From a virus (taxonomy: Duplodnaviria > Caudoviricetes), in the IMG/VR virus record IMGVR_UViG_3300032331_000486, positions 1,022 to 65,021 of that record: a stretch of 64,000 nt of DNA; one strand, given 5' to 3'. A model generated the notes under the pieces. The model saw only the letters and a program-made list of their open reading frames with translations. It did not search any database and was not told the origin of the DNA. The position numbers were made by a program, and so were the translations under genes. Numbering within the stretch: the first letter of the stretch is position 1; every line of letters begins with the position of its first letter. Positions 25,473 to 55,217 of this stretch are shown here, in pieces.

Positions 25473-25760
25473 ATGTATCGGAACAAGAAACTGACTGACG
25501 CTGCCCGCTTGCTACCTTGCCAACACTGTGGAACAAGTGACGGCACTGTAGTAGCGGCGCACTCCAACCAGCTGCGCGACGGCAAAGGACGAGGGCTCAA
25601 GGCTCACGACTACCGAATCGCATCTTTATGCTACAAGTGCCACGCTGATCTAGACCAAGGCGCTAGACTGAATAAAGTCCAGAGAGTTGAAATGTGGGAA
25701 GACGCCCATCGCAAAACGATAGGCCTCTTCTTTGAGATGGGGATTATTGGGCCGCTTTAA
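25473..25760 (+). CDS. DUF1364/YbcO-like Zn-binding HNH-like protein
   Basis: PCQHCG, VVAAHSN, GRGLKAHD, LCYKCH. Confidence 0.75.
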   Translation: MYRNKKLTDAARLLPCQHCGTSDGTVVAAHSNQLRDGKGRGLKAHDYRIASLCYKCHADLDQGARLNKVQRVEMWEDAHRKTIGLFFEMGIIGPL

Positions 25761-39462: not shown

Positions 39463-39471
39463 GCCCGCCCC

Positions 39472-41199
39472 TTATTTTGGTAGATCTTCAAATTTTACAG
39501 GTTTAGGGCCAGAAGGTGCGCCACCTAAAATTTCAGGGGCATTCCTTGCCCACCATCCGGGTTTCTTTGACATTTCAACAACTTGAGGTAAAGGCATCAT
39601 TGGTGGTAATTCTGCGCCAATTGCGTTAAAGTGAAATTTTCTAATTTCATACATGCGTTGTAATGCTGCATTAAATTCAGGAGAGCCGGGTTCTAAACCG
39701 CCATTAGGGCCAATACGTTCAGCCTCTCGTTTGTACTGAGCGTCATTGTTTGTAGCAGCTTCTGCTTTAGCAATATTTTTATCCGCTTTAGTGGGCTTAG
39801 TTTCTTCGGCGGCTTTATCAAGATTTTCGTAATGCTTCCCAAGAATGCCGTAATACATTTTAGTATTTGCATTGGATTCTGCGGCATTTTTAGAAGTTTC
39901 TCCAGTACTGTATATATGAGAAGCCAAAGTTCCAAGGTCAGTTTTAACCTTAAAGGCATCAACAGTAAGTTTGTCAAACTCTCTTTTAGCTTTTTCTCTT
40001 TCGGCAACAGCGGCCTCAATGCCAGCTGCATCACCACGGCGCTTGGCGTCTTCTTCTTTGGCTAGGCTTCTATGAAACTCAATAGCCGCAGTTTCTTGTT
40101 TGTCGCGGATAGTGTCTTGTTCTTTTTGCAACACTTGTGATGCTTCGGCAGCAACCGCGCCTTGGTAACCAATACCACGGGATGGATCGGCTTTAGCAAA
40201 TGCGCTAGCCTGAGCAATTAGGCGGTCAATACCACCGCGCTCATACACTTCTTGCTCGCGCTTTTCTTTTGCAGCTTGGCGTTTTGTTGCCTCCGCATAA
40301 GGATCTTCTTTTACACCAGCTAACTTTTGGCTTTCTTTGATGCCTTCAAAAGCTTGGGCTCGGCTAAGAGTCTGTGGTGCAGTAGAAGTTATCTCTGGCG
40401 CTTTAGGAAGACTTGCAAGGATTGCTTCGTAAGAACCGGGTTTAGGAGGAGCTACTGGAGCTGCTCTTGGAACTGGTGTTTCATCGGTTGGTAAATTAAC
40501 CAAAGTAGTGCCAGCACTTTCTAATTTAGGGTTGCCAGCCATAACTCGAGCAATTTGTTCTTTTGACATTAGGCGTTGACGTTCTGCATCGGATTGGTCA
40601 TTAGCCGCTGCAATAAGACCGTAATCGGCGGCTTCTTTTTGAGACAGCCTTCCATTTAAATGAGTGTATTGATCCTCATCTGGATTTCCACGAATAACAT
40701 CACCACGAGCAAACGCAACAATGCCACCGCCCGCGTAACTACTCTCATTGAAGTGATTGACGGGCAAAGACATTAGCCCGCCACCAGCAGCCATGACTGG
40801 TTGTCTTGCAGGAGAAGGTTGCTGTACAGGGGGAGCCTGAGTTGGGTTAACGCCTTGGGGTAGCTGGGTAATGCCTTGGTCAGGCTGGGCGGCCGCAGGG
40901 TTAACCATGTTTGGTGCAGCAGCTGGGTTAACCGTATATGGATTAGCCGTTGGGTTAATACCCGTAGGAGGCGCAGTTAAAGATCCAGCGACTTGGTCTT
41001 TAATAGTGCCTTTGGTTGTATCAAGCGCCGTGCTACCTTCTTCGATTTGCTTGCGACGATTCATCTCAATCAAAGCGAGGAATGCTGGCACTTCTGGGTT
41101 TGAGCCATTGGCGTACTTGATCAGGTCTTCGTTCTTAACCGTGAATGGGTCTTGAAGACTGCTTTGAACTTGAATTAAGTTTGCTGGTTCGATTGCCAT
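39472..41199 (-). CDS. Putative internal virion/ejection protein
   Basis: 575 aa, helical and Pro/Ala-rich, in the ejection-gene position upstream of the giant protein. Confidence 0.6.
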   Translation of the reverse strand: MAIEPANLIQVQSSLQDPFTVKNEDLIKYANGSNPEVPAFLALIEMNRRKQIEEGSTALDTTKGTIKDQVAGSLTAPPTGINPTANPYTVNPAAAPNMVNPAAAQPDQGITQLPQGVNPTQAPPVQQPSPARQPVMAAGGGLMSLPVNHFNESSYAGGGIVAFARGDVIRGNPDEDQYTHLNGRLSQKEAADYGLIAAANDQSDAERQRLMSKEQIARVMAGNPKLESAGTTLVNLPTDETPVPRAAPVAPPKPGSYEAILASLPKAPEITSTAPQTLSRAQAFEGIKESQKLAGVKEDPYAEATKRQAAKEKREQEVYERGGIDRLIAQASAFAKADPSRGIGYQGAVAAEASQVLQKEQDTIRDKQETAAIEFHRSLAKEEDAKRRGDAAGIEAAVAEREKAKREFDKLTVDAFKVKTDLGTLASHIYSTGETSKNAAESNANTKMYYGILGKHYENLDKAAEETKPTKADKNIAKAEAATNNDAQYKREAERIGPNGGLEPGSPEFNAALQRMYEIRKFHFNAIGAELPPMMPLPQVVEMSKKPGWWARNAPEILGGAPSGPKPVKFEDLPK

Positions 41200-41211
41200 G
41201 TTATTTCCTTA

Positions 41212-42462
41212 TTAAGGCTCATTGGGGTCAAAGTTGACATCAGGCACCGTTTGATTTGGGTTGTAACCGGGATATGGATTTTCTGGGACGGTCATAGCGT
41301 TTGGATCATAGATAGGCGACTCGGTTGAACCTGTTGGAATGAGCTCCCCATTAGCTCCCGGTGTGTATCTTCCGCCTTGTGAATCACTTATATAAGTTCC
41401 ATCTGGGGATAGCGTGTATCCAAATGGAACTTGATCTGGGCTAATTGAATTTCTATTTAGCAAAGTGCTTGGATTAATACCGGCAGCTTTTAGTACGTTA
41501 GTAATGGTGTCACCAGTCATACCGGAAGCTTTAAGGTTTTTAATAAGCTCTGCAGTACTAGCCGCAGTACCAACAGCACTTTGTAAGAAGCTTGGCTTGG
41601 CGTTGAACGTACTTGCAGTAGATCCGCCAATACCTTTGATGAGGTTGGCTTGATTGGCAAGTAAGGTGCCGGGGTAGTTTCTTTGCTCAAGGTACTGGTT
41701 GTACAGAGCATTGAGGCCGGCTTGGTTTTGAGCTTGCTGAGTATTTCCAGCAGCACCCAAGGCTGTAAGATTTTGCAATCCATACTGAGCTTGTTGGGTT
41801 CCTACGTTTCCTGCGGCTTGATTTGCCGTTGCGGCTTGAGATAGACCTTTGAGGCCTACGTCTGTACCGTACTGAGCTTCTTGAATCCTGCGAGCTTGGT
41901 CAGCATTAAATTGAGTTGCCGCCTTATCGTAAGCGGTGTTGTATCCCTGACCAGTAATAGTGGCTAAGTTAGTTCCTAGATTACGTTGAGTCTCAGTATC
42001 CATCAAAGCTTGACGGGATCCGCCGTATGCTCCTGCTTGGGTGGACTTAGCCGCATTACCTAACTGAGTAATTTGAGCTTGGCGACGAGCCTCCTCCAAT
42101 TGTGGATTAAGCGCGTTCTGCAGATATGGGTTCATGTACTGCTGGGCGGCATTTGCATCAAATGCACTACCAACAGGGTTGTAACTTGTTCCAGCTGATT
42201 TATTGCCAATATCTAAAAGATTGGTACCGGCCGTAGTCATGGTAGACGGCAAGGTTAAGTTTGATAATCCTTGAAATGCTTTATTTTGAAGCTCAGAAGT
42301 ACCAGCGGTTAACTGACCCGTGTACTGAGGAGCAGGATTATTAAGAAGCGCCTGACCCTTACCCAGTACGTCTTGAACGTAAGGTTGCGTAAAGGTGCTT
42401 GGTCCCGTTACCGTTGCCGAGCTGGGCGTATCGGTAAGTCCTGAAGATGATAGTAGTGCCAT
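41212..42462 (-). CDS. Putative DNA ejection/pilot protein
   Basis: 416 aa, Gln/Ala/Gly-rich; YMNPYLQN, AGAYGGSRQAL. Confidence 0.65.
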   Translation of the reverse strand: MALLSSSGLTDTPSSATVTGPSTFTQPYVQDVLGKGQALLNNPAPQYTGQLTAGTSELQNKAFQGLSNLTLPSTMTTAGTNLLDIGNKSAGTSYNPVGSAFDANAAQQYMNPYLQNALNPQLEEARRQAQITQLGNAAKSTQAGAYGGSRQALMDTETQRNLGTNLATITGQGYNTAYDKAATQFNADQARRIQEAQYGTDVGLKGLSQAATANQAAGNVGTQQAQYGLQNLTALGAAGNTQQAQNQAGLNALYNQYLEQRNYPGTLLANQANLIKGIGGSTASTFNAKPSFLQSAVGTAASTAELIKNLKASGMTGDTITNVLKAAGINPSTLLNRNSISPDQVPFGYTLSPDGTYISDSQGGRYTPGANGELIPTGSTESPIYDPNAMTVPENPYPGYNPNQTVPDVNFDPNEP

Positions 42463-42471
42463 GGTATTTCC

Positions 42472-44493
42472 TTACTTAGGAATGAATTTTTGGGGTTTAA
42501 TTTGTTTGCCCTGCTTGGGGTTTCCCGTGCGGGCTCTGCGAACTTGATCCATCATCTTGTATAAAACCTTAGCTCCAGCATCTGTTGAGCCGTTTCCAAG
42601 ATGAGATACCACATCAGCAGGGATTACAAACTCACCATCAGCCAATCTAGCTGGTTGCTTGTTGCTGATTGAAGCTGGTATATGGTCTGACATTCCATCT
42701 CCGGGGCCTTTGAGTAAGCGGCCTCCATCAGAGTAACCGCCAAGAGCTCCACCCCCAGCCAAAGACATTAGACCGCCTTGTGCTGCAAACCGTGGATCAA
42801 GCATTGCTTGCCCTTGAGCCGCCCCATCGATAGGAGCCTCCCATGGGCGTGGATTCCAATTAAGAAGTTGTTGTTTGTAAGCGGCCGTTTGTGCAGCTGG
42901 GCTTGAGCTGTCACTAGCCAATGCACCTAAACCTAAAGCCGCTCCGCCAATCAAAGCCGCATTTCCAAAGTTAAATCCACTGCCTGTAGAACCCGTAGAA
43001 ACTTGTTTTACAGGAGTTGAAGTTGGTGTGCTTGTCAATGATTTTGAAAGCTCTGACAACGTGGGTTGTTGGGTTACAGGAATGATGTCAGCTAATGGAT
43101 CTGTTTCCATGGCGGGCATATTTGATACAGAGTTTGGATCAATACCAATTGCATCCCAATAAGCTTGATCGCTTGCTGTTGTTTGAACAGGCGGAGCAGG
43201 AGGTGTTACCTCTGCTAGCGGATCAGTCTGTTGAGCTGGCATTCCAGATACAGAGCTTGGACTAATACCGATAGACGCTAAGAAGTCTTCTTGGCTTGTC
43301 TTGAGATCAGGCGTAAATTCTGTATCAACTACAGGAACTTCATTTGGTTTAACTGGAATTGCAGCTTCGGGCGTAATTTCTGGTTTAGTATCTGGCTCAT
43401 TCATTAACGATTTTTGAAGTCCTGCTACAGACTCCATATCAGGCGCTAACCATGCATTGGTTGTTGGATCGTAGAAAGAACCAGCTGGTTTGTTGTCTGC
43501 CTCAGCTGAAGACAATAAACGATAGCCAAACGGAGGTTTATATTCTTTAGCAGCAGGACTTTCGGCATAGATTGGTTTGCCAGATACATCCACTTTGTTA
43601 AAAGAGGCGGAATCTAATGGGCCTGCAACTTGTACGCCTTTGGGTAAAACTTGATCCGCAAGATCAGCCGTAGTTGTAGGCGCTGTAGTTGGCATAGTCC
43701 CAGCAAAAGTAGGATCAAACACACTTTCTGCTTTACCTGTATCGCCAGCCTTTAAGCCAGAAGCATTAGCTTGTTGGTATTGACTCTTGGCCTCGGATAT
43801 GCCTGAATTGATTGCGGCGTTTACTAAAGCTTGAGAAGGATCGCCGCCCATCAAAGTAGACGCAACAACCGAATTAACTGCCGCTTTTTGACCGGGCGAC
43901 AAGTTCTCAAAGCCGGGAATCTGATCCGTAACAGCAGCTGTTCCAGCGGATATACCGGAGTTAGTCAGGGCAACCAAAGGATCTTGGCCACGAACAATGC
44001 CTGCAGCTGTGCCACCAGCAATCTTGCCCGCGATGTTTCCAGCTACATCTCCAGCCGTACCCATACCAGCTTCTTGTGCGGCCAGCATACTACTCTGTTG
44101 AGAACCTATATCTGTGCCATAAGTATTTGCAGCACCTACGCTGTCTACGCCCGTATTAACGTAATTGCTAACGCCTTGGGCAACGCCTTGGGCTACATAA
44201 GTAGTGGCCGCAGACTTCAAGCCATCTTCTAGACTTCCGCCGTGGGCTATTGTGTCTGCCGCAGAAACAAGAGGGAGAAACTCAGGGGCAACAATTGCAA
44301 CGGTTATTTTTGCAAGAGCGCCAACTGGGTCGGCTTCAACTGCTTTGATAGTGTTATCAACAGCTTTTACAACAGGTTCAACAACTTGCGTAACAACAGC
44401 ATTGCCAACGTCGGAAACAGCATCTCCCACAGAGGAGACTACGTCACCTACTGCGTCACCTACATCCGATACTGCATCTGCTACTGCACCCAT
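42472..44493 (-). CDS. Putative ejection protein with Met-Gly amphipathic N-terminus
   Basis: 673 aa; starts MGAVADAVSDVGDAVGDVVSSVGDAVSDVG; C-terminal GPGDGMSDHIPA...RLADGEFVIPADVVS. Confidence 0.6.
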   Translation of the reverse strand: MGAVADAVSDVGDAVGDVVSSVGDAVSDVGNAVVTQVVEPVVKAVDNTIKAVEADPVGALAKITVAIVAPEFLPLVSAADTIAHGGSLEDGLKSAATTYVAQGVAQGVSNYVNTGVDSVGAANTYGTDIGSQQSSMLAAQEAGMGTAGDVAGNIAGKIAGGTAAGIVRGQDPLVALTNSGISAGTAAVTDQIPGFENLSPGQKAAVNSVVASTLMGGDPSQALVNAAINSGISEAKSQYQQANASGLKAGDTGKAESVFDPTFAGTMPTTAPTTTADLADQVLPKGVQVAGPLDSASFNKVDVSGKPIYAESPAAKEYKPPFGYRLLSSAEADNKPAGSFYDPTTNAWLAPDMESVAGLQKSLMNEPDTKPEITPEAAIPVKPNEVPVVDTEFTPDLKTSQEDFLASIGISPSSVSGMPAQQTDPLAEVTPPAPPVQTTASDQAYWDAIGIDPNSVSNMPAMETDPLADIIPVTQQPTLSELSKSLTSTPTSTPVKQVSTGSTGSGFNFGNAALIGGAALGLGALASDSSSPAAQTAAYKQQLLNWNPRPWEAPIDGAAQGQAMLDPRFAAQGGLMSLAGGGALGGYSDGGRLLKGPGDGMSDHIPASISNKQPARLADGEFVIPADVVSHLGNGSTDAGAKVLYKMMDQVRRARTGNPKQGKQIKPQKFIPK

Positions 44494-44494
44494 A

Positions 44495-44926
44495 TCATTG
44501 TCCTAAGTTCAAAACAATCCGCCTGCCGCCGGACTTGAGCTTGTACTCTTTGAACCCCATGCCGGGCATCGGGGGCTTCTTAGAGATGGCGTGGAATAAA
44601 GTACTTATTGCCGGATCCTCAAACTCTGTGACCAGCATGTTCATACCCATTTTCTTGGCATAGACCACATACTGTTTACTGTTTTCTACAAAGTTACGGG
44701 CTTTGTCGGCGTTCAAAGCTTTAAAGAATCCTTGGCCTTTATCCCCTTTATGAAGGATAAAGATCGTATTACCAATTTGTTTTACATCTGTATTGGGCTG
44801 GGTCATCTCGGTCAGCATGGCTGGGAATGCCACTTTAGGCGAATGTTGGGAGCGAGTGTTCTCCAACGCGATATGAGCTATCTCAGCGTTGTTGAGCTTT
44901 TTCTCCTTGCTGTCCACCATTGCCAT
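44495..44926 (-). CDS. Hypothetical protein, possible divergent GNAT-like acyltransferase
   Basis: 143-aa alpha/beta ORF, 1 nt from both neighbours; function inferred from size and position only. Confidence 0.45.
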   Translation of the reverse strand: MAMVDSKEKKLNNAEIAHIALENTRSQHSPKVAFPAMLTEMTQPNTDVKQIGNTIFILHKGDKGQGFFKALNADKARNFVENSKQYVVYAKKMGMNMLVTEFEDPAISTLFHAISKKPPMPGMGFKEYKLKSGGRRIVLNLGQ

Positions 44927-44927
44927 A

Positions 44928-46016
44928 CTAGATCTCCAGAATTGCTGCAGAATACACGTTACCCATGCCAGCGGCCAAGCTGAGAATCAACCCACCGGGG
45001 TTAGACTCATCATAGGAAAGAAATTGGTTGTCATGTGTTGTGCGGTTTTCTATCTTTGGCACAACGCCACGTTTTAAATCATCAATTAGCAAACATGTCT
45101 CGAGCAAGCCACTGGCGCCCATAGTGTGGCCGATTTTAGCCTTGTATGACGTTGCAATGTAACCCCCTAAACAGTAATTTAAAGCGGCTTTTTCAGCTAC
45201 GTTATTGGAACTTGTTCCAGTGCCATGGGTTTTGACCACTTTAATCTGTTCGGCGGTAGCGCCAGAAACATGCAAAGCACCCTCAATAGAACGCACAAAC
45301 CCCTGCCCGTCCTCTCGCTGGCCGATAGCATTTGAATGATCCTCGCTAGCCGTATACGCCCCTTTGAGGGTGGCCAACGGGTTGTCTGAGTCAGCCTCAA
45401 ACACCGCCAGTACAGCGCCTTGGCCAACTCTGAAGCCATAGTTAGTGTCATCAAACGCTGATGGTAATACGCCACGCTCCTCTTCTTTTTGAGACAAGGA
45501 CGCTCTAGCCTCACCAAAGAACTCCAGCACCGCGTTTGATACGGCATCCTCAACCGACAGAACTACTACTCTTTTAAACCCGTAGTGGTTGATGAGGGTT
45601 TGGACGTCCATGAGGGCTTTGAGGCTTGACGCACAGGCCGTGGCATCGGTAACAACATGATCCGTAGCACCCAGAGCTTGGGCCGTTCTTCCAGCGTAGA
45701 CCTGAGTAAGGGAAAAGGGGAGGAACTTGTATTCATAGGACAACCTTGTAGGCTTCTTAGAGCGTGGGTTAATTCCGGCAAAGTGGGCGTTACCCGAAGC
45801 AAGAATAAATGCAGTCTTGCCAACGCGGTTCTCTCGTAGGTATTTGACCAGCTCAGGATCTAAGACTTTCTCGGCCAAGCGGTGAGGAGCGTAAAACATC
45901 CCAGTACTCACGCGGGCGTATGTTTCTGGAAACCAGTGAACTCTCTGAGGAAACGGTCCCTCCATGAGTTCAACCGTAGTTGAGTAAGCCGTCCGGTAGT
46001 GGGTTAGGTGGATCAT
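44928..46016 (-). CDS. Beta-ketoacyl-ACP synthase (FabB/FabF-like)
   Basis: Catalytic motifs DATACASSL (Cys), KTHGTGT (His), KAKIGHTMGASG (His); SAFD...GFRVGQGA; ATG 46016 overlaps the ACP stop. Confidence 0.92.
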   Translation of the reverse strand: MIHLTHYRTAYSTTVELMEGPFPQRVHWFPETYARVSTGMFYAPHRLAEKVLDPELVKYLRENRVGKTAFILASGNAHFAGINPRSKKPTRLSYEYKFLPFSLTQVYAGRTAQALGATDHVVTDATACASSLKALMDVQTLINHYGFKRVVVLSVEDAVSNAVLEFFGEARASLSQKEEERGVLPSAFDDTNYGFRVGQGAVLAVFEADSDNPLATLKGAYTASEDHSNAIGQREDGQGFVRSIEGALHVSGATAEQIKVVKTHGTGTSSNNVAEKAALNYCLGGYIATSYKAKIGHTMGASGLLETCLLIDDLKRGVVPKIENRTTHDNQFLSYDESNPGGLILSLAAGMGNVYSAAILEI

Positions 46017-46294
46017 TTGATCTGCTCCAAAGCCCATTCCATAGACTCAGGATCGCGCGTCTTGTGCAGCTGGATAAAGTCATACAGCTCATCTACAGTC
46101 TCAGGCTGGAACTCTTTGGATATCTCGTCTGGGATGTCATAGATCATGCCCATAAACATACCGATCATCAGCATGTCTAGGGAGTCAAAGCAAGTCTCCT
46201 CGAACCTCTCATCCATCCGCTCAATAGGGACGAACTCATGGTGAGCCGGGCGGGCGACTCTGGCTACTTTGTTAAGCAGTTCTATAAAGTTCAT
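46013..46294 (-). CDS. Acyl carrier protein
   Basis: 93 aa, acidic; FDSLD phosphopantetheine site (Ser38); YDIPDE...ETVDELYDFI helix III/IV pattern; adjacent to the ketosynthase. Confidence 0.85.
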   Translation of the reverse strand: MNFIELLNKVARVARPAHHEFVPIERMDERFEETCFDSLDMLMIGMFMGMIYDIPDEISKEFQPETVDELYDFIQLHKTRDPESMEWALEQIK

Positions 46295-46641
46295 CCGACC
46301 TTCCAGTTTGTTCCATCTGAATATACAGGCGTTTTGACCGCCCCGCCTGTGGCTACGGTTGAACCAAATACCGGAGCTAAAGCATCAGACACAAACGCCC
46401 TAGCCCCAATTCCAGATGTAGCGGCGCTTGGAAGGGTTGTCACCGTATAAACGGTAAGGGCGGGGATTATCCCGCTGTCCGTACTTAGTTGATCCAATAT
46501 GCCTTGTATTCGGTTGAAGTACAGGCGCAAGACATTATTAAACTGATTTTGGTATAGAGGGGAATACTCCTCCCCACCAAGAGGCAATGCTGGTGCCGCA
46601 ATTTTATTTATTTCAGATTCAGAGGTAACGATGTATGTCAT
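46291..46641 (-). CDS. Small virion/tail-associated protein
   Basis: 116 aa, APALP...NVLRLYFN, PVYSDGTNW; coupled to the nozzle gene. Confidence 0.65.
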   Translation of the reverse strand: MTYIVTSESEINKIAAPALPLGGEEYSPLYQNQFNNVLRLYFNRIQGILDQLSTDSGIIPALTVYTVTTLPSAATSGIGARAFVSDALAPVFGSTVATGGAVKTPVYSDGTNWKVG

Positions 46642-48773
46642 CGTCTGCCGTCCTGTCTAATGTCTAGACGGGGCGATCCTAGTTGCCAAGTTACTCCTGC
46701 GGCAGTAGACCTGACTTCCATAGCCATTTGACGGCCTCTAACCCTTGTATAGATCTGCCCCGTGAATTCTTCAATTGGAAGAATTGCCGTGCGGGTAATA
46801 GTGGCCGAGGCATCGCCACCTACAGACGCTGGGCTGTTATACCCAGAGCCTGAGTTCTGCATGGGCTTTAAGTACATAGTGACTTGCGGGCTAGTTGCCG
46901 TAGATCCTCTAAAGGTAATGTCTGGTACTACACGCCATATAAACCCAAACCTATCGCCGTCATCAATATCAAACTCAGCAGATGTGATGTAAGCCTCAAT
47001 AGGTAGAGTCGTACCCGTAGTCTTATCGTCAACACCAATTTCATGGTTGACTAAGTTGTAGTCATAAGTGGCTCCAATTGGGTAATCGCTTAGACCAGAA
47101 TCCAGCCATGCTGTTCTGCCCATAGAGCCGTAATACCAAACGCCAGTACCGCCTTTGCCGTCTGGTTCAAGGTAGTTATAGACAACATAAGAGTCAACCA
47201 CGGTAGAGTCTAAAGAACAGTAGAACCACCAGATTTCATTAAAGCCCTCGTTAGTTCCAGACACAACTTGGTCAAACTGGTCTTTGTTTATGTTTTCAAA
47301 AACGTGCTGGCGCAGATCACAAGACAAGGTTTGAGTGCGTCCATCGTATTTATAGAACTTATCTACGCCCATCCAGTACGCCACGCCACCAGCGTAGCCC
47401 ACGGCATTTTCTCCAGCGATAGATACGTTATCACCAACCAGTTGAGAACCCCACACCACGGGAGCGCCTACATACTGGAGAGAATAAAGGGATGAATCAG
47501 TCCATACCAATATCTCTTGTCGGGCTTGCATGGCCGTAACAATCTCAGAACCGTGAGACAGACGAAGATCACCAGCTGTATTAGTGGCGGCGGGAGTCCA
47601 TTCCACTACGGATTCTTGGTTAGACCAACGGATCTGCATGGGGTCTTGAGTAGTCGATCCAAGTGCGTTACATCCAAAAGCAAACACATATCTGCTTGTA
47701 TCAGAGACAAGAATAAAGTTTTGCACCGTAGGACAGGCGGATGCGCTGGCTAGGCTGGCAATGTTTATACCTCTTGAAGATACAGAATGAGTGCCAGATT
47801 GAACGCCTGTTGTGATTATGTTTGCTCCACCAAAAGTAGCTGTCAGGTTGCAAGTAGCCCCAGAAGAGTTAGCAACATAATAAACAGTACCTACAGACAA
47901 TCCTGTGGGTAAAGCGCCTGTAGTGGTTAGCTGGATAACCGTGCCATTGGGAATAGCAGTCAAACTTCCAAACGTAACCACAGCCGGACTAGCAATCGTT
48001 ACTGTAAATGTAGATCCTGTTACGCCTAGATTGGCGTTCCATAAATAAATAGCACCACCCCTTGGGCCAAAGATTAGGTCTTGGCCAAAGTTACTTTGAC
48101 TCCACAAGCGCATAGCGTCCGTAGATGCGGCACCAAAGCCCCATGTTCCATATCCCCATAGGCCAGTTCCCCAGCCGCTCAAAGGGACTGCATAGGCTGG
48201 GCCGGTGTTAATTTGATATTGAGCAATCACAGTTCCGCCGCCGGGTGATCCTGATGCGTCTGTGGCATTAGCCGTGGCTGAGACAGTAATGGTGTATGTG
48301 TTTACTGTAATGACAGTAACTTTGAACTCGCCGGTCAGCACAGCGGCAGTAATGTTTCCACCCAAACTAGTAATGCCTGCACCACTGAAAGTTACATAGT
48401 CGTTGGTTATGCATCCGTGCGCTGTGGCTGCAACGCTGATTACGCTAGAACTAGCCGTAGCCGTGAAAGGATTGGTTAAGGTGGCTGTAGCCCTGATCGG
48501 GGTTACATCGTTATAAACACCCCCACGCTCGATGTAGAACTTGAGGTTAGTGCCTACGCCAATCAGATTAAGAGCAGAAAGGGTTACCCAGTTCCACAGG
48601 GATCGACAAATCCCTAGAAACGTGTCAGTGGAGATGCGTTGCCAGCCGCCTATTTTCTCAGGTGTGCCTTGGCGGAAACGGATTTTGTCGCAGTCGTACC
48701 AGCCGTTCTCATTGGTATAGCGAGTGTTCTCCTTATTGACCCCCGGCCTTAGAGCTAGTTTTTTTAGTGGCAT
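46638..48773 (-). CDS. Putative tail nozzle/stabilisation protein (P22 gp10-like)
   Basis: 711 aa, beta-rich; IRWSNQE, FNEIWWFY, RTAWLD, RVRGRQ, RLDIRQDGRR. Confidence 0.7.
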   Translation of the reverse strand: MPLKKLALRPGVNKENTRYTNENGWYDCDKIRFRQGTPEKIGGWQRISTDTFLGICRSLWNWVTLSALNLIGVGTNLKFYIERGGVYNDVTPIRATATLTNPFTATASSSVISVAATAHGCITNDYVTFSGAGITSLGGNITAAVLTGEFKVTVITVNTYTITVSATANATDASGSPGGGTVIAQYQINTGPAYAVPLSGWGTGLWGYGTWGFGAASTDAMRLWSQSNFGQDLIFGPRGGAIYLWNANLGVTGSTFTVTIASPAVVTFGSLTAIPNGTVIQLTTTGALPTGLSVGTVYYVANSSGATCNLTATFGGANIITTGVQSGTHSVSSRGINIASLASASACPTVQNFILVSDTSRYVFAFGCNALGSTTQDPMQIRWSNQESVVEWTPAATNTAGDLRLSHGSEIVTAMQARQEILVWTDSSLYSLQYVGAPVVWGSQLVGDNVSIAGENAVGYAGGVAYWMGVDKFYKYDGRTQTLSCDLRQHVFENINKDQFDQVVSGTNEGFNEIWWFYCSLDSTVVDSYVVYNYLEPDGKGGTGVWYYGSMGRTAWLDSGLSDYPIGATYDYNLVNHEIGVDDKTTGTTLPIEAYITSAEFDIDDGDRFGFIWRVVPDITFRGSTATSPQVTMYLKPMQNSGSGYNSPASVGGDASATITRTAILPIEEFTGQIYTRVRGRQMAMEVRSTAAGVTWQLGSPRLDIRQDGRR

Positions 48774-48774
48774 A

Positions 48775-49227
48775 TTACTTTGTATGGTATTCGGCTTCTG
48801 TCCAAATGCCGGGTTTGTACTTGCCTTCTGGTTTGAAGATAGTCAGCGCTTGCTGACGCATCTCAGGCGCAAAACTGATGTGCATCCAACGTCCGTACTC
48901 ATGGATCATCTGGTCAAACTTAATTCCAGCCTTCAAAACAATCTGACATAGTTCGTGAGGAGTATGAGCAGAAGAAGAGCAATCAATAGCCCACCCGTCC
49001 ATGTGACTGGATACTTTAGAGCCACCAACAGCCACATTAACATCGGGCAAGCGTAGCCAAGAATTAACACGAAGAGCGCCTGTGACATTGCGAACCTCCT
49101 CCATCTTTTGAGCAGCCGTCGTCATGTTCGCCAGTTGGCGCTCATCTGGCTGATTATTGATGTTTAAACGTATAGCAGTCTCGCTATAGGTTGCTTCATC
49201 AAGGGTAAAGTGTTCGGAGAGGTTCAT
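48775..49227 (-). CDS. Endolysin, peptidase M15 family
   Basis: LSEHFTLDE, VNSWLR, SSHMDGWAID, WMHIS. Confidence 0.85.
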   Translation of the reverse strand: MNLSEHFTLDEATYSETAIRLNINNQPDERQLANMTTAAQKMEEVRNVTGALRVNSWLRLPDVNVAVGGSKVSSHMDGWAIDCSSSAHTPHELCQIVLKAGIKFDQMIHEYGRWMHISFAPEMRQQALTIFKPEGKYKPGIWTEAEYHTK

Positions 49228-49697
49228 TTCTTTTTCATCTCGGCAAGTTTCTCAACTGTTCGTCCACCAAAATATGCCCCCATTATCAGCATTCCCCACT
49301 GTCCTAGCAAGGTGACATACGCCTCATTAGCGTTTAAACCAAAGGCTGACATCATGGCAAACAGAAAGTAACCTATAAAGATGGCTACAAGGCTCATGGG
49401 ACGAATATTTTTGGACAGCCAAGAGTCGCTAGTCATGTCCACATCCCAGCGCTTGGAGATGTTGTTGTCTTCGTTCTTCATGGCATCTGCCGCCACTTTA
49501 GCCATCTCTAACTCTAACTCTGCGATTTTCTGAGCAGCAGCAGGGTCACCAGCAATAGCCTTGGCTACCGCTTCAACAGAATCACCAACGCCCAGCCGAG
49601 AAGCAATAGCACTAACAGCGGCACCACCCAGAGGGCCAGCAACGGCAGTAGCAAGAGTAGGCGCAATATTTTTAAGAAGACCGAGTAGTTCATTCAT
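49224..49697 (-). CDS. Holin (3TM gene-transfer-release type)
   Basis: DSWLSKNIRP, TM helices, AYFGGRTVEK; next to the endolysin. Confidence 0.75.
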   Translation of the reverse strand: MNELLGLLKNIAPTLATAVAGPLGGAAVSAIASRLGVGDSVEAVAKAIAGDPAAAQKIAELELEMAKVAADAMKNEDNNISKRWDVDMTSDSWLSKNIRPMSLVAIFIGYFLFAMMSAFGLNANEAYVTLLGQWGMLIMGAYFGGRTVEKLAEMKKK

Positions 49698-49861
49698 TTT
49701 GATTCTTTCAGTTCCCGTTTAAGTTTGCGTAACTCTTTCATCTCTTGCCGGAGCTGGGCTTTCATATACAAGGTTTCCACATACGCCATCGAAGTAACTC
49801 CAACAATGATGCATATGGCTACTCCTATCAATATCCAGTAGACCAGCTTCGTAGTTGCCAC
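49694..49861 (-). CDS. Small membrane protein in the lysis cassette (55 aa)
   Basis: Manual translation (GTG)ATTKLVYWILIGVAICIIVGVTSMAYVETLYMKAQLRQEMKELRKLKRELKESK; stop overlaps holin ATG. Confidence 0.55.
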   Translation of the reverse strand: MATTKLVYWILIGVAICIIVGVTSMAYVETLYMKAQLRQEMKELRKLKRELKESK

Positions 49862-50535
49862 ATGAACCACCCAAAAAACATAGATATAAACACAACTGCG
49901 ACCCCACTACTTACCAGCCCAATCAACTCAATCTCCTCTTGCTCTTGTTTCCACCTTGCCAGCCTAGTCCTGCGTATTGTTTCTGCTCTAGCCCATTCCT
50001 GTTCCCGCTCAATCTTTTGGTGCATTTTGAGGAATCTACTGTACAAGTCCTTCAACTCAGGCGGGGCGTAGACCATTGCCTCTCTAGTCTGCTCCATCAA
50101 CTTCTCCAGTTGCAACTCAATCAATGCCCGCTCTATGGCTTTTTGACTGGTGTTTTGCGCTGGGTCATAGTTGGTTTTGCTTGTCTCCTCTAGTTCAAGG
50201 TAATGGTTGTTAATCTGTTGTTGCGTGTCAAAGAGGACTCCGAGGTTTGCACCAATCTCGCTGATGAGTTTGAGTTCGAGGTCTTCGTAAGACTGTTTGG
50301 CTTTGGCTGTTTTCTTTTGCGCCACAGGCTTGGACGGGGTGTCTGGCTCTGCTCGTTTAAACAGACCAATGAACCAGTCAAAGATACCTTTGATTGCCTT
50401 GACATCGCCAATGACTCCCTCAACGGTTTTCTTTGCGCCCTCAAGTTCCATACGCCCCTCATGGAGCATAGAACATCCCTGCTTAATAAAGCCAACAGCG
50501 GCTTGAGCCGCCATAAGTAGGGAGAATGGGTCAAT
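49828..50535 (-). CDS. Coiled-coil protein with C-terminal TM helix (start ATG 50514 or ATT 50535)
   Basis: 228-aa ORF, extendable by IDPFSLL to an ATT 6 nt after GGAG. Confidence 0.65.
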   Translation of the reverse strand: MDPFSLLMAAQAAVGFIKQGCSMLHEGRMELEGAKKTVEGVIGDVKAIKGIFDWFIGLFKRAEPDTPSKPVAQKKTAKAKQSYEDLELKLISEIGANLGVLFDTQQQINNHYLELEETSKTNYDPAQNTSQKAIERALIELQLEKLMEQTREAMVYAPPELKDLYSRFLKMHQKIEREQEWARAETIRRTRLARWKQEQEEIELIGLVSSGVAVVFISMFFGWFMWQLRSWSTGY

Positions 50536-50538
50536 GGC

Positions 50539-51078
50539 TTACTCCGCTGGCTCAGGCTTGGGCAACTGAGGTTCTACCTGACTACGCAACTTTGTGTACA
50601 ACGGATGAGCGTTGGACTGGGTTGGTAATTGACCGATGATGTTGATAACGTCAACGGCTTCTTGTGCGGTCAGGGTGATTGCAATGTCGCTCATGCTGAT
50701 GCATCCTCTAGCGGTGTCATGTTCTCGGTTGTCCAAAAATCTTTGGCAAGCATAATCTTTAGATGCTCTTTGTTACGAGCCAAGCAGTCTGCCCAATCTT
50801 CTGCTGTCATGCCTTCGGGCTTTCCAGCGTTGATAAGATTTACTGAGTCCATTGCGGCAGAGTAATGCTGTGCAATTTGTTCTGCGGTGATAGTAATTTC
50901 TGACATGGTTTATTCCTTATGCAAGTTGTTCGTCTGTAGGTCTAGCCAATGTTGGATGTTCCCACTTGGCTATGTAATCGCCTTTGCCGTCAGAATCATT
51001 CTGAAGAGTGATGGTCGTCGAAAAGTCACGGTCTGTGACTTCGGGGTAGATTGCTCTAATTTTTGAAGCAAGAGACAT
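50539..51078 (-). CDS. Three small tail-associated genes (50539-50694, 50691-50906, 50917-51078 XkdW/YorD-like)
   Basis: Last one translated by hand: MSLASKIRAIYPE...LQNDSDGKGDYIAKWEHPTLARPTDEQLA; AGGAA RBSs. Confidence 0.6.
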
Positions 51079-51088
51079 TTTTTATTCC

Positions 51089-51769
51089 TTATGACAATTG
51101 TTGAATGTTGAGTGTGCAACTTTGCCCAACAAAATAACATTGGTTGCTTCCATTACCCCCAGAGTGATACCCATAAACAGATATAACATCATTTACAGCA
51201 AGCGTTCCACTCCAAGATGATGTTAATGTGTTTGAATAAGCATATGAGCCAGTAAAATCATTTTCTGCCCCGTTACTAAAAGAAGAGCCGTTTTTATAAA
51301 TCCTAACAATCCACTGATTAGGTTGACCACCACTTGATTGCCTTTGATAAATGGTAGTTGTAATTGTGTACTGACCAGCAACTTGAATGGTGTACTGATT
51401 GCTTGCAAAACCAGACTTGTTGTCAAAAGTTGCGGAATTGAAAGGCACTTTTTGGTAAGTGCTATCACCAAAAGTTGAAGAGTCTGATGTAAGAATAATA
51501 GAGGCTTGAGCCAATGTTGTTGTTCTACCTGTACCGCCATTTGCAACAGGCAAAGTTCCTGTTACGCCAGTTGTAAGTGGTAACCCAGTAGCATTAGTCA
51601 ACACCAAAGCAGATGGCGTACCTAATGCTGGAGTTGTTAGTGTTGGACTAGTCAGAGTCTTATTAGTAAGCGTCTGAGTATCAGTTGTACCCACCACTGC
51701 ACCAGCAGGATTACCTACTCCACCCGCAGGGAAGGTTACGCCATTTGTTCCGTCAATAATTGCTGTCAT
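51089..51769 (-). CDS. Tail fibre-like protein with C1q/TNF-like C-terminal head
   Basis: [29 protein letters not shown]...[10 protein letters not shown]...L.VND.I. Confidence 0.65.
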
Positions 51770-54485: not shown

Positions 54486-55217
54486 TTATTCCTTAAATTT
54501 ACAGTTGTCCATATGCCATCTTGGCATAGCAGTTAATCCACCCACTTTTTTGCAGTGCGGACATTCAATCTTTGGAAAGTGTTTTCCTGTCATGGCATTT
54601 GGTCTACCAATGTTTGCCAATTTTAATTGGGATTTTGTATGCTCGGTCATTTTTCTTCCAAGCGATGCGCGGCCAATCTTTGCCTTGTGTTCATCAGTAA
54701 ATTTTCTACCAGTATTGGCTTTAATAATTGCTTCCAAAACATGGGAAGGAATTTTCTCGCCTTTGTTGTGAGGAATAAAACCTTTTTTAAATCTAGTGTT
54801 AGCACCGTGAATAATCAAATTTTGCATAACAAGGGCTTCTACTTCTGGCGTATGTCTATGCCCTTTTTTTGATGCGCTTACTTTTGCTTTTGTCTCTTCT
54901 GACATTGGGCCAAAAACTTTACCTAAAGCGCTTGGCGGCATACCACCACCAACAGCAACATTCCAACCAATTTGGTCAGTCGCTCTTAGTTTTGCTTCAA
55001 TCATCAAGCAATATGCTTCATCCGCAATAAGCAACACTTTTTTAACCAGCGTGTCCCAGCCATACTTTTTTATGGCTCTTTTTAAATGCTCATTTGACGG
55101 GCTATTTTTATGGCTAGAAAAACGAGTCTTGACATTTTTAGACACACCTATGTATCCCTGAGTCAGCATATCGCTGTGGTCAGGGTGGTGTACCCAATAA
55201 ACGCTACAGGCCGTCAT
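54486..55217 (-). mobile_element. Free-standing GIY-YIG homing endonuclease with NUMOD3 repeats
   Basis: VYW...GYIGVSKNVKTRFSSH, GWN; repeats MSEETKAKVS, FTDEHKAKIG, MTEHTKSQL; CPHC tail. Confidence 0.8.

What the first reader, a model, noticed from the sequence alone, without database searches (positions are those of the whole stretch)
42472..46294. Phage ACP + ketosynthase + candidate acyltransferase cassette in the virion operon: possible fatty acylation of an ejection protein
Seen: four minus-strand genes in series. ACP (46013-46294, DSL Ser38) overlaps the tail gene stop (ATGA) and the ketosynthase start (ATGA). The FabB/F-like ketosynthase (44928-46016) keeps Cys (45633-35), His (45225-27) and His (45126-28). 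A 143-aa ORF follows after 1 nt, then after 1 nt a 673-aa internal-virion-type protein starting Met-Gly. Known: ketosynthases act on ACP-bound acyl chains; acyl-ACP is the donor for protein acyltransferases such as HlyC-type enzymes and the GNATs of lipidated RiPPs; many podoviruses carry an acyltransferase-like gene between nozzle and ejection genes. Inference: this is not a generic metabolic auxiliary gene. It looks like a dedicated late pathway that builds a specific acyl chain on a private ACP and transfers it to a virion protein, perhaps for membrane anchoring during DNA ejection. No PPTase, FabD, FabG or FabZ was seen, so host enzymes would be needed.
Basis: partly seen in the sequence, partly recalled or inferred. 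Interest (0 to 1): 0.92.

Follow-up and report, generated by a model that had tools for sequence, protein, structure and literature searches.

The report
Phage ACP-ketosynthase-GNAT cassette before ejection genes
An uncultured 65-kb phage carries its own acyl carrier protein, a fatty-acid-type condensing enzyme and a small acyltransferase-fold protein just ahead of its DNA-ejection genes, and this may be a private kit for putting an acyl group on the first ejection protein, though that is not shown.

Summary
Four minus-strand genes are chained by two ATGA overlaps and two 1-nt gaps.

- **ACP:** a divergent acyl carrier protein. A family profile hits only ACPs in the PDB (best E 1.9e-4).
- **Ketosynthase:** keeps Cys128, His264, His297 and Lys292 in 80 of 80 family members.
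- **143-aa ORF:** a confident GNAT fold (pLDDT 93; Z 12.1 to RimI), but it lacks the CoA P-loop.

**New here**
- The GNAT is predicted to bind the conserved N-terminal domain of the next protein (score 0.75, best control 0.00).
- That protein starts M-G/S/A/P/C in 124 of 124 distinct relatives.
- ACP-KS is a separate, mobile unit. It sits next to the GNAT in 70 of 77 and 43 of 67 sampled loci.
- Elsewhere ACP-KS lies in the early region. The GNAT still precedes the ejection gene about 20 kb away in 3 of 10 such records tested.
- Two contigs have lost ACP-KS but keep the GNAT.

ACP-to-GNAT transfer was not tested.

The scan has noted this cassette before on other DNA (e1-3538005, e1-6202960, e1-3444812, e1-6187558). 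My paper searches found no description of it.

The parts
46638..48773 (-). 711-aa virion/tail protein, upstream context
   Evidence: PHROG 3287 'virion structural protein' at 5.7e-56. Its orthologue in MW202545.1 is annotated 'phage stabilization protein'.
46291..46641 (-). 116-aa ORF of unknown function; its stop overlaps the ACP start (ATGA)
   Evidence: ORF, junction. No Pfam, PHROG or NCBIfam match. Found only in the lineages that share this tail protein.
46013..46294 (-). Divergent acyl carrier protein, 93 aa
   Evidence: A family profile hits only ACPs among the 60 PDB sequences listed, best E 1.9e-4, with DSLD aligned. AF2 model has pLDDT 91.4 and helix II starts at Ser38. All 50 Foldseek rows are carrier proteins, but E is 0.18-1.2. 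No Pfam PF00550 hit.
46181..46183 (-). Ser38 codon, the presumed phosphopantetheine site
   Evidence: D37 and S38 are invariant in 31 of 31 aligned ACPs. Sequence read.
44928..46016 (-). Short (362-aa) Cys-His-His ketosynthase
   Evidence: PF02801 at 2.4e-17 and PF00109 at 3.2e-10. Best PDB match is FabF 4ddo at 1.7e-18. Below every NCBIfam cut-off.
45633..45635 (-). Active-site Cys128 codon
   Evidence: Invariant in 80 of 80.
45225..45227 (-). His264 codon (HGTGT motif)
   Evidence: Invariant in 80 of 80.
45126..45128 (-). His297 codon (K292-x-x-I-G-H motif)
   Evidence: His297 and Lys292 are invariant in 80 of 80.
44495..44926 (-). 143-aa GNAT-fold protein without the CoA P-loop
   Evidence: AF2 model has pLDDT 93.1 and pTM 0.87. 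Every Foldseek PDB row shown is GNAT-family. VIA Z is 12.2 to HP0935 and 12.1 to RimI, and all 50 rows are GNATs. The P-loop is absent in 30 of 31 members. No Pfam or PHROG GNAT or IVP-A family is matched by any of 31 members.
42472..44493 (-). 673-aa protein starting Met-Gly; presumed first ejection protein (by position only)
   Evidence: ORF. No family match. A gene with a homologous N-terminal domain follows the GNAT directly in 183 loci.
44134..44493 (-). Conserved N-terminal domain (120 aa) of the 673-aa protein; predicted GNAT-binding region
   Evidence: In alignment A4, M1 and P56 are invariant and V4 is at least 90% conserved. Complex model: score 0.75 against a best control of 0.00, with interface residues 13-99.
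41212..42462 (-). 416-aa ejection protein, downstream context
   Evidence: PHROG 4287 'DNA ejection protein' at 1.1e-8.

Best explanation
The locus is two coupled units.

**Unit 1, the core.** The 143-aa GNAT-fold protein docks on the conserved N-terminal domain of the next protein. That protein is the presumed first ejection protein. The arrangement resembles the small gene that heads the ejection operon in other podoviruses.

**Unit 2, accessory and mobile.** This is a phage-private ACP and a Cys-His-His ketosynthase.
- The host PPTase makes holo-ACP and host FabD loads malonate. Both steps are inferred.
- The KS then forms an acyl or beta-ketoacyl thioester on the phage ACP. This is inferred from the intact active site.

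**Proposed link (inferred, not shown).** The GNAT has replaced the CoA P-loop with an invariant N-A-D-T/K-A loop. It takes the acyl group from the phage ACP and puts it on the amino terminus of the ejection protein. That terminus is exposed after removal of Met1, because position 2 is always G, S, A, P or C. The modification would be made before the protein is packed into the head.

The chain length and the purpose are unknown. The purpose could be membrane anchoring at ejection, or protection of the N-terminus.
For: **Parts**
- ACP: the family profile finds only ACPs in the PDB, best E 1.9e-4, and Ser38 sits at the start of helix II.
- KS: Cys128, His264, His297 and Lys292 are invariant in 80 of 80.
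- The 143-aa protein is a GNAT fold: pLDDT 93.1, Z 12.1 to RimI (rmsd 2.5, 121 aligned), Z 11.1 to Ard1, and all 50 rows are GNATs.

**Donor site**
- The canonical Q/R-x-x-G-x-G/A loop is missing from the beta4-alpha3 region in 30 of 31 members.
- PMC11685415 (passages read) reports P-loop substitution as characteristic of carrier-protein-dependent GNATs (SbzI, FeeM), and also names GdvG and the CurA/GphF decarboxylases as carrier-protein-dependent.
- The invariant or near-invariant residues F68, A70, N72, A73, D74 and N78 lie in beta4, the beta4-alpha3 loop and the start of alpha3. They fall outside the predicted interface with the ejection protein. Something other than that contact therefore keeps them conserved.
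- The ACPs are acidic (pI 4.05-4.75). The GNATs are mostly basic (median pI 9.07).

**Target**
- Complex model of the GNAT with the first 120 residues of the 673-aa protein: score 0.75, best of 3 controls 0.00.
- That mark was reached by 58 of 80 solved complexes and 2 of 110 mismatched pairs. These counts hold only roughly, because my own alignments were used.
- The runs agree in at least 74% of contacts, and the partner's pLDDT is at least 69.
- In 124 distinct N-termini from 183 loci, position 2 is G 58, S 57, A 6, P 2, C 1, and position 4 is V in 109.

**Linkage**
- ACP lies directly upstream of KS in 80 of 80 loci and in 67 of 67.
- Full ACP+KS lies directly upstream of the GNAT in 65 of 68 GNAT-anchored loci with room.
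- Where ACP-KS is elsewhere, the same GNAT family is present about 20 kb away in 3 of 10 records, estimated 47-62% complete. In the two inspected it sits in front of an M-G protein.

**Host dependence**
- The complete 65,021-bp record has no PF01648, PF00698 or PF00501 match.
Against: - No test of ACP-GNAT contact or of acyl transfer was possible.
- Two contigs from different metagenomes have lost ACP and all but 96 nt of KS. They keep an intact GNAT and ejection gene, so the GNAT can persist without ACP-KS.
- ACP-KS is not next to the GNAT in 7 of 77 loci and in 24 of 67. There it follows an SNF2 helicase among early-type genes.
- In 7 of 10 such records no GNAT was found. All seven are fragments, 13-47% complete.
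- The units are swapped independently. L080 against L028/L036 shows GNAT distance 0.12-0.17 but KS 0.43 and ACP 0.55. L034 against L014 shows the reverse pattern.
- These phages are relatives, so co-occurrence may reflect descent and not function.
- The predicted interface names residues 13-99 of the target, not residues 1-12. It also includes the invariant E40 of the GNAT. A chaperone-like role would explain that part of the conservation.
- Pfam describes T7 gp13 as a 'probable scaffold protein'.
- The phage has no reductase or enoyl reductase. FabZ is present in only 1 of 228 loci. A long chain would therefore need host enzymes.
- Position 2 is Ser as often as Gly, which is unlike N-myristoylation.
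Confidence: 0.4

Rival explanations
1. The GNAT-fold protein is a non-catalytic assembly factor or chaperone for the first ejection protein, filling the slot of T7 gp13 or P22 gp14. ACP-KS is an unrelated auxiliary metabolic pair that acts on host fatty-acid synthesis. It often sits at the tail/ejection boundary only because that boundary tolerates insertions.
For: - The predicted GNAT-target interface is large: 228-235 contacts over residues 13-99, not only the N-terminal tip.
- The CoA P-loop is lost.
- ACP-KS occurs in a second, early context in 7 of 77 and 24 of 67 loci.
- ACP-KS can be deleted and swaps independently of the GNAT.
- One lineage adds a FabA/FabZ dehydratase after KS: PF07977 at 5.8e-30.
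- A preprint predicts that a phage ACP contacts host FabZ (10.64898/2026.03.01.708874, passages read).
- Pfam calls T7 gp13 a probable scaffold protein.
Against: - The most conserved GNAT residues (F68, A70, N72, A73, D74, N78) lie in the acyl-donor region and outside the predicted interface.
- Full ACP+KS lies next to the GNAT in 65 of 68 GNAT-anchored loci.
- The GNAT family is present in all three of the largest records in which ACP-KS is unlinked.
- ACP-KS alone, without reductases, is a poor way to raise fatty-acid flux (inference).
Confidence: 0.3
2. The GNAT is an N-alpha-acetyltransferase for the ejection protein, like RimI/RimJ or NatA. It uses acetyl-CoA or another host donor, and ACP-KS plays no part.
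For: - The best fold matches include N-terminal acetyltransferases: RimI Z 12.1, Ard1 Z 11.1, NatC Z 10.3.
- The position-2 spectrum G/S/A/P/C matches what I recall of substrates left by Met removal. That comparison is recalled, not tested.
- The GNAT persists after loss of ACP-KS.
Against: - The pyrophosphate-binding P-loop of CoA-using GNATs is absent in 30 of 31 members.
- None of 31 members reaches any Pfam acetyltransferase family.
- A dedicated ACP is almost always present.
Confidence: 0.12
3. The trio makes a small molecule. Candidates are an N-acyl amino acid (FeeM-like), an acyl-homoserine-lactone-like signal, or a short polyketide primed by a GNAT-type loader (CurA-like).
For: - Carrier-protein-dependent GNATs include N-acyl amino acid synthases and PKS loading decarboxylases (PMC11685415, passages read).
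- ACP, KS and GNAT together form a minimal biosynthetic set.
- Some relatives add a cupin, a di-iron protein or FabZ.
Against: - The GNAT is always directly followed by the ejection-protein gene, in 183 loci.
- The GNAT is predicted to bind that protein.
- The GNAT stays with the ejection gene, not with ACP-KS, when the two units separate.
Confidence: 0.08
4. ACP and KS are themselves packed into the head and ejected, and they act on host lipid metabolism at the start of infection.
For: In this window they lie inside the run of virion and ejection genes, and no promoter-like site separates them.
Against: - In many relatives they are encoded among early genes.
- Nothing seen here suggests a packaging signal.
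- No virion proteome is available.
Confidence: 0.05

Closest known systems
Carrier-protein-dependent GNAT acyltransferases: GdvG of goadvionin biosynthesis, FeeM, SbzI
   Same: - A GNAT fold is used with a dedicated carrier protein instead of CoA.
- The P-loop is substituted (PMC11685415, passages read).
- In goadvionins a GNAT-family enzyme transfers the ACP-bound polyketide unit, and the acyl moiety is N-terminal on the ribosomal peptide (PMC8784127, passages read). This is the chemistry proposed here.
   Different: - No sequence relationship was found.
- The proposed acceptor is a 300-1250-aa virion protein, not a short peptide or a metabolite.
- The donor pathway is only ACP plus one KS.
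- The setting is a phage late operon.
- Activity is untested.
Bacterial KAS II / KAS I (FabF, FabB) with AcpP
   Same: - The thiolase-type KS domains are present, with the Cys-His-His triad and the Lys.
- The best solved relatives are FabF enzymes, from 1.7e-18.
- ACP has DSLD at helix II.
   Different: - The protein is 362 aa, against about 410 for FabF.
- PF00109 matches only profile positions 116-250.
- It scores 101.9 bits against the fabF cut-off of 493.75.
- The C-terminal loop reads A-A-G-M-G-N (G350, M351 and G352 are invariant).
- ACP fails Pfam PF00550, and its helix II is hydrophobic.
Small gene heading the podovirus ejection operon: T7 gp13 (PF11090), P22 gp14 (PF11039/DUF2824), the cobavirus/SIO1 GNAT
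   Same: - Same slot: a protein of about 140-150 aa between the tail genes and the first ejection gene.
- PMC6775973 (passages read) equates a GNAT in that slot with T7 gp13.
- A BFVD 'Internal virion protein A' is a fold match (E 8.9e-5, TMq 0.56).
- The nearest named Atlas clusters are DUF2824 (score 0.92, 144 shared features; a lead only).
   Different: - There is no sequence or profile similarity: hhalign probability 0.1% and 0.07%, and 0 of 31 members hit either Pfam family.
- T7 gp13 has an R-L-S-G-K-A stretch that fits the P-loop pattern. This family has none.
- T7 gp14 and P22 gp7 do not start M-G/S.
- T7 and P22 have no ACP-KS.
N-myristoylation of entry proteins of non-enveloped eukaryotic viruses (picornavirus VP4, reovirus mu1) by host NMT
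   Same: In concept, a GNAT-fold enzyme would acylate the N-terminus of a protein that is released to breach a membrane. This comparison is recalled, not tested.
   Different: - Position 2 is Gly in only 58 of 124.
- The enzyme and the donor pathway would be virus-encoded.
- The donor would be acyl-ACP, not acyl-CoA.
- Nothing is shown experimentally.

Membership tests
Acyl carrier protein (PP-binding, PF00550) | Conserved Ser in a D-S-L motif at the N-terminus of helix II | tested here: met
   D37 and S38 are invariant in 31 of 31. Helix 38-51 starts at Ser38 in the model, pLDDT 91.4. DSLD aligns to the ACP motif in PDB hits.
Acyl carrier protein (PP-binding, PF00550) | Sequence membership at Pfam's threshold | tested here: not met
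   No Pfam hit at E up to 0.1. PF00550 finds nothing in the genome at E up to 1. A profile of the family does reach ACPs in the PDB at 1.9e-4.
Acyl carrier protein (PP-binding, PF00550) | Helical-bundle carrier fold | tested here: inconclusive
   All 50 Foldseek rows shown are carrier proteins, but E is 0.18-1.2 and TMq is 0.39-0.59. There is an extra C-terminal helix at 85-92.
Acyl carrier protein (PP-binding, PF00550) | Phosphopantetheinylation of the Ser | not testable with these tools
   The phage has no PPTase. A host enzyme would be needed.
Elongating ketosynthase KAS I/II (FabB/FabF) | Ketoacyl-synthase N- and C-terminal domains | tested here: met
   PF00109 at 3.2e-10 (40.5 bits, cut-off 20.8). 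PF02801 at 2.4e-17 (63.5 bits, cut-off 20.8).
Elongating ketosynthase KAS I/II (FabB/FabF) | Cys-His-His triad and the Lys before the second His | tested here: met
   C128, H264, H297 and K292 are invariant in 80 of 80.
Elongating ketosynthase KAS I/II (FabB/FabF) | Equivalog-level score and full-length N-terminal half | tested here: not met
   fabF TIGR03150 scores 101.9 bits against a cut-off of 493.75, and all 19 NCBIfam hits are below their cut-offs. PF00109 is matched only over profile positions 116-250 of 252.
GNAT superfamily | GNAT fold | tested here: met
   Model pLDDT 93.1. Foldseek finds 25 matches at E up to 0.001, and every row shown is GNAT-family. VIA Z is 12.2 and 12.1, and all 50 rows are GNATs spanning residues 5-143.
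GNAT superfamily | CoA pyrophosphate loop Q/R-x-x-G-x-G/A between beta4 and alpha3 | tested here: not met
   Absent there in 30 of 31 members. The single match lies upstream of beta4.
GNAT superfamily | Sequence membership in a Pfam acetyltransferase family | tested here: not met
   None of 31 members matches one at E up to 1. The family profile finds no GNAT in the PDB.
Carrier-protein-dependent GNATs (GdvG, FeeM, SbzI, CurA loader) | Substituted P-loop plus a dedicated carrier protein encoded with it | tested here: met
   P-loop substituted. ACP plus KS directly upstream in 65 of 68 loci. The criterion is taken from PMC11685415 (passages read).
Carrier-protein-dependent GNATs (GdvG, FeeM, SbzI, CurA loader) | Contact with the carrier protein and transfer from its thioester | not tested
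Podovirus IVP-A class (T7 gp13 PF11090; P22 gp14 PF11039) | Small gene between the tail genes and the first ejection gene | tested here: met
   Window order. T7 and P22 orders.
Podovirus IVP-A class (T7 gp13 PF11090; P22 gp14 PF11039) | Sequence membership | tested here: not met
   None of 31 members matches. hhalign probabilities are 0.1% and 0.07%.
Podovirus IVP-A class (T7 gp13 PF11090; P22 gp14 PF11039) | Shared fold | tested here: inconclusive
   One BFVD protein named Internal virion protein A matches at E 8.9e-5, TMq 0.56. The Atlas DUF2824 clusters score 0.92 and 0.90, which are leads only.
HlyC-type toxin-activating acyltransferases | Acyl-ACP-dependent acylation of internal Lys residues | tested here: inconclusive
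   No such chain is among the rows shown. No Lys is conserved in the first 120 residues of the target.
N-myristoyltransferase-type N-terminal Gly acylation | Obligatory Gly at position 2 of the substrate | tested here: not met
   Gly in 58 of 124 distinct N-termini, Ser in 57.

The most novel reading that the evidence does not exclude
These phages carry out a virus-encoded, carrier-protein-dependent acylation of the N-terminus of their first ejection protein. A private ACP and ketosynthase build the acyl (or beta-ketoacyl) donor. A P-loop-less GNAT, docked on the target's N-terminal domain, transfers the group. This would be the first lipid-type modification known for a tailed-phage ejection protein. 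It would also be a bacterial-virus counterpart of the myristoylated entry proteins of non-enveloped eukaryotic viruses.
Probability: 0.3. Interest if true: 0.9.

Novelty: new variant of a known kind. Interest (0 to 1): 0.78.

Why it matters
How podovirus ejection proteins leave the head, enter membranes and build a channel is still poorly understood. A 2022 review of these proteins contains none of the words 'acyl', 'acetyltransferase' or 'post-translational' (PMC8954989, term search).

A phage-encoded acyl-donor pathway tied to the protein that leads the ejection operon would make covalent modification of ejection proteins directly testable with four small genes in E. coli.

It would also add a minimal ACP + KS + GNAT set to the few known carrier-protein-dependent GNAT systems.

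The family is large:
- at least 557 viral contigs carry a KS relative;
- 400 carry a GNAT relative;
- there are 1307 GNAT clusters at 90% identity.

It is nearly absent from named genomes. It occurs in 1 of 50,697 GenBank phage records and at 3 loci in two MAGs among 185,579 species genomes.

Tried and rejected
**Family searches that gave nothing**
- Pfam, PHROG and NCBIfam for the ACP gave only PHROG 28189 (unknown function, 8.8e-6).
- The same libraries gave nothing for the 143-aa, 673-aa, 575-aa and 116-aa proteins.

**GNAT profile against PDB sequences**
- Only Rab-type GTPases appeared, at E 0.16-0.22. I rejected these as chance.

**Profile comparisons (hhalign)**
- GNAT family against T7 gp13 and P22 gp14: no similarity.
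- Target N-domain against P22 gp7 and T7 gp14: no similarity.
- GNAT family against the 149-aa ORF after KS in L161: probability 0.8%, rejected.

**Fold matches**
- HlyC-type, LuxI-type and FeeM chains are not among the rows shown. This does not exclude them.

**KS relatives**
- The exhaustive search found 8312 proteins at E up to 0.001 and 60 at E up to 1e-30.
- After a set of 344-389-aa proteins, the list is filled by giant multi-KS proteins of 3,798-7,801 aa.
- Their scores add up 3-6 stretches, so I do not read them as the closest kin.

**Context of distant KS relatives**
- Single-sequence scans with P0158 and P0167 found no relative.
- A profile scan (A5) then gave the third sample.

**Promoter and terminator scan of 39000-51500**
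- 6 promoter-like sites against 14.8 expected, none on the minus strand inside the cassette.
- 16 terminator-like sites against 13.5 expected.
- There is no evidence for a separate transcription unit.

**Accessory genes**
- tblastn with the FabZ of L190 found it in 1 of 228 loci. FabZ is therefore not a regular part of the system.

**Paper searches**
- 99 papers, 20 listed by title and abstract. None concerns a phage ACP-KS cassette.
- six phrases for phage ACP or phage ketosynthase, 2 papers. One was read in passages, and it only predicts that a phage ACP contacts host FabZ.
- 4 papers.
- 39 papers, 15 listed. None concerns acylation of phage ejection proteins.
- 15 papers.
- On that basis I say I found no description in print. 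Subscription journals are not covered.
- Supplementary files were not consulted. They might hold gene tables of environmental phages.

**Not done**
- Sequencing-run and read-laying tools were not used.
- ACP-GNAT and ACP-KS complexes were not modelled, because the cap is one job.

Full report
**Setting**

The window is bases 1022-65021 of a 65,021-bp virus record with direct terminal repeats, estimated complete. It encodes a large terminase, portal, helicase, tail-spike-like proteins and an endolysin.

On the minus strand the late region reads, in order:
- endolysin (48775-49227)
- a 711-aa virion protein (PHROG 3287)
- a 116-aa ORF
- the four genes of the finding
- a 416-aa protein of PHROG 4287 'DNA ejection protein'
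- a 575-aa protein
- a 4572-aa protein

**The observation**

There are two small corrections.
- The gene whose stop overlaps the ACP start is the 116-aa ORF of unknown function, not the tail protein.
- The 673-aa protein is called an ejection protein on position alone. It has no family match.

**What each protein is**

*KS.* It passes both Pfam ketosynthase domains. Its best solved relatives are FabF enzymes, from 1.7e-18.
- In an alignment of the window protein with 79 relatives, C128, H264, H297 and K292 are invariant.
- It is not a FabF orthologue. All 19 NCBIfam hits are far below their cut-offs (fabF 101.9 against 493.75 bits). It is about 50 residues shorter, and the N-terminal Pfam domain is matched only from profile position 116.
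- An exhaustive search shows a distinct set of 344-389-aa relatives down to about 32-35% identity.

*ACP.* It fails Pfam.
- A profile of 31 family members finds 89 PDB sequences at E up to 1. The 60 listed are all acyl carrier proteins, best E 1.9e-4, with DSLD aligned.
- The AF2 model (pLDDT 91.4) starts helix II at Ser38.
- Foldseek lists only carrier proteins but at weak E-values.

*The 143-aa protein.* It has no sequence family. None of 31 members hits any acetyltransferase or IVP-A model in Pfam or PHROGs.
- It folds with pLDDT 93.1 into beta-alpha-alpha-beta3-alpha-beta-alpha-beta2.
- It matches only GNATs, with Z 12.2 and 12.1 for HP0935 and RimI.

**The donor site**

The CoA pyrophosphate loop is missing between beta4 and alpha3 in 30 of 31 members. 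It is replaced by F-[KR]-A-[LFI]-N-A-D-[TKIS], in which N72 and D74 are invariant.

PMC11685415 (passages read) reports such substitution in the carrier-protein-dependent GNATs SbzI and FeeM. It shows that grafting a CoA-type loop into SbzI cuts activity to 2-5%.

These most conserved residues lie outside the predicted contact with the next protein. The ACPs are acidic (pI 4.05-4.75) and the GNATs mostly basic (median pI 9.07). This fits an ACP-using GNAT but does not show one.

**The target**

The gene after the GNAT varies from 312 to 1255 aa. It keeps a homologous N-terminal domain of about 100 aa, with M1 and P56 invariant and V4 at least 90% conserved.

In 124 distinct N-termini from 183 loci, position 2 is G 58, S 57, A 6, P 2, C 1, and position 4 is V in 109. 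As far as I recall (not tested here), every one of these residues allows removal of Met1.

The one complex job went to the GNAT with residues 1-120 of the 673-aa protein.
- Score 0.75, best of 3 controls 0.00.
- The mark was reached by 58 of 80 solved complexes and 2 of 110 mismatched pairs. These counts hold only roughly, because my own alignments were used.
- The runs agree in at least 74% of contacts, and the partner's pLDDT is at least 69.
- The interface is large. GNAT residues 12-46, 59-67, 97-101, 108-115 and 122-142 meet target residues 13-99.
- The first 12 residues of the target are not named.

The model supports a specific GNAT-target pair. It says nothing about catalysis.

**Distribution**

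I took three overlapping samples of IMG/VR. Many loci come from the same contigs, so the samples are not independent.

*Sample 1, KS patterns.* 132 relatives were found and 80 kept.
- ACP lies directly upstream in 79 by tblastn. In the 80th (L072) it is seen by eye as a 93-aa DSLD ORF.
- The GNAT lies directly downstream in 70 of 77 loci with room.

*Sample 2, GNAT patterns.* 400 relatives were found. I examined 70 new viral loci plus 3 MAG loci.
- Of 68 with at least 1500 nt upstream, 65 have full ACP+KS.
- Two have a 96-nt KS remnant only.
- One short fragment has neither.

*Sample 3, a profile of distant KS relatives.* At least 557 relatives were found and 70 new loci examined.
- ACP is adjacent in 67 of 67.
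- The GNAT is adjacent in 43 of 67 and absent from the locus in 24.

**The second context**

In the loci without an adjacent GNAT, ACP-KS follows an SNF2-type helicase. A conserved gene of about 100 aa with no family match comes next, in 29 of 228 loci, among small early-type genes.

In 3 of 10 such records the same GNAT family lies about 20 kb away. These three are estimated 47, 52 and 62% complete. In the two that I inspected, the GNAT sits after a tail gene and directly before a protein starting MGAV or MGGV. The 7 records without a match are fragments, 13-47% complete.

**Independent movement of the two units**

Pairwise distances in 63 loci show unit swaps.
- L080 is close to L028/L036 in GNAT (0.12-0.17) and target (0.08-0.10), but far in KS (0.43) and ACP (0.55).
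- L034 against L014 shows the reverse pattern.

So GNAT plus target is one unit and ACP plus KS is another. The second unit moves, can be exchanged and can be lost.

**Reading**

- Most secure: the GNAT-fold protein works on or with the N-terminal domain of the first ejection protein.
- Next: ACP-KS makes a thioester-bound acyl or beta-ketoacyl group on a private carrier.
For it stand the adjacency, the P-loop loss, the conserved donor-site residues and the charge complementarity. Against it stand the deletion variant, the second context and the independent swapping.

I put the full acylation model at 0.4. I give a chaperone plus unrelated metabolic pair 0.3, plain N-acetylation 0.12, a small-molecule pathway 0.08 and packaged enzymes 0.05.

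**Comparison with the known**

- *In chemistry,* the closest system is the goadvionin GNAT GdvG. In goadvionins a GNAT-family enzyme transfers an ACP-bound polyketide unit, and the acyl moiety sits at the N-terminus of the ribosomal peptide (PMC8784127 and PMC11685415, passages read).
- *In position,* the closest are T7 gp13 and P22 gp14. PMC6775973 (passages read) equates a GNAT in that slot with gp13. Sequence membership in these families was tested and not met. A fold match and a language-model lead point the same way but are weak.

**Novelty**

My searches found no paper that describes this cassette or any acylation of phage ejection proteins. GenBank holds one related record, in which only the KS is named.

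Earlier notes of this scan describe the same cassette on other genomes and suggested the IVP-A comparison. I tested that lead here.

Noticed in passing
L088:1691-1786 and L089:3895-3990 (IMG/VR loci): Two contigs from different metagenomes are close relatives of the window phage (GNAT 85% identical). They have lost the ACP and all of the KS except 96 nt (residues 283-314). The 116-aa ORF, the GNAT and the 673-aa gene are intact. Their 673-aa protein starts MSAV instead of MGAV.
   Followed up: yes
L190:5818-6249: One early-context locus carries a FabA/FabZ-type dehydratase directly after KS (PF07977 at 5.8e-30). A near-identical neighbour locus (L184) lacks it. It occurs in 1 of 228 loci.
   Followed up: partly
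L078:9100-9756 (same gene in L182:5818-6471): A 218-aa gene is inserted between KS and the GNAT. It has no Pfam or PHROG match. By eye it has an H-x-D and a later His, like a cupin or 2-oxoglutarate oxygenase. Earlier scan notes describe hydroxylase-GNAT pairs at this position in other phages.
   Followed up: partly
L161:3847-6848 (same in L162): This is a third context. Near tail-fibre and lysis genes lie a ferritin-like di-iron protein, a distant ACP, a KS, a 149-aa ORF and a Cupin_2 protein. The di-iron protein has weak AurF, rubrerythrin and acyl-ACP-desaturase hits (E 5e-5 to 1e-4). The Cupin_2 hit is 4.2e-7. The 149-aa ORF is not detectably a GNAT (hhalign probability 0.8%).
   Followed up: partly
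L152:4434 onward: The one GNAT locus with neither ACP nor KS upstream is a 5.6-kb fragment. The gene after its GNAT starts Met-Cys, the only Cys at position 2 among 124 N-termini.
   Followed up: no
window 54486-55229 (-): A homing-endonuclease-like gene (PHROG 314, 6.7e-24) sits among the tail-fibre genes.
   Followed up: no
window 25744-39462 (-): A single 4572-aa ORF ends the ejection-gene run. I did not analyse it.
   Followed up: no
L061, L068-L072, L079 and 22 further loci, directly after KS: A conserved gene of about 100 aa with no Pfam or PHROG match always follows KS in the early-context arrangement (29 of 228 loci). Its role, and whether it relates to ACP-KS, is unknown.
   Followed up: partly
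L083:1370-2059 (P22 gene 7): The GenBank record of P22 notes that the N-terminal 20 residues of the first injection protein, gp7, are removed by the host OpdA protease. N-terminal processing of the first ejection protein therefore has a precedent.
   Followed up: no
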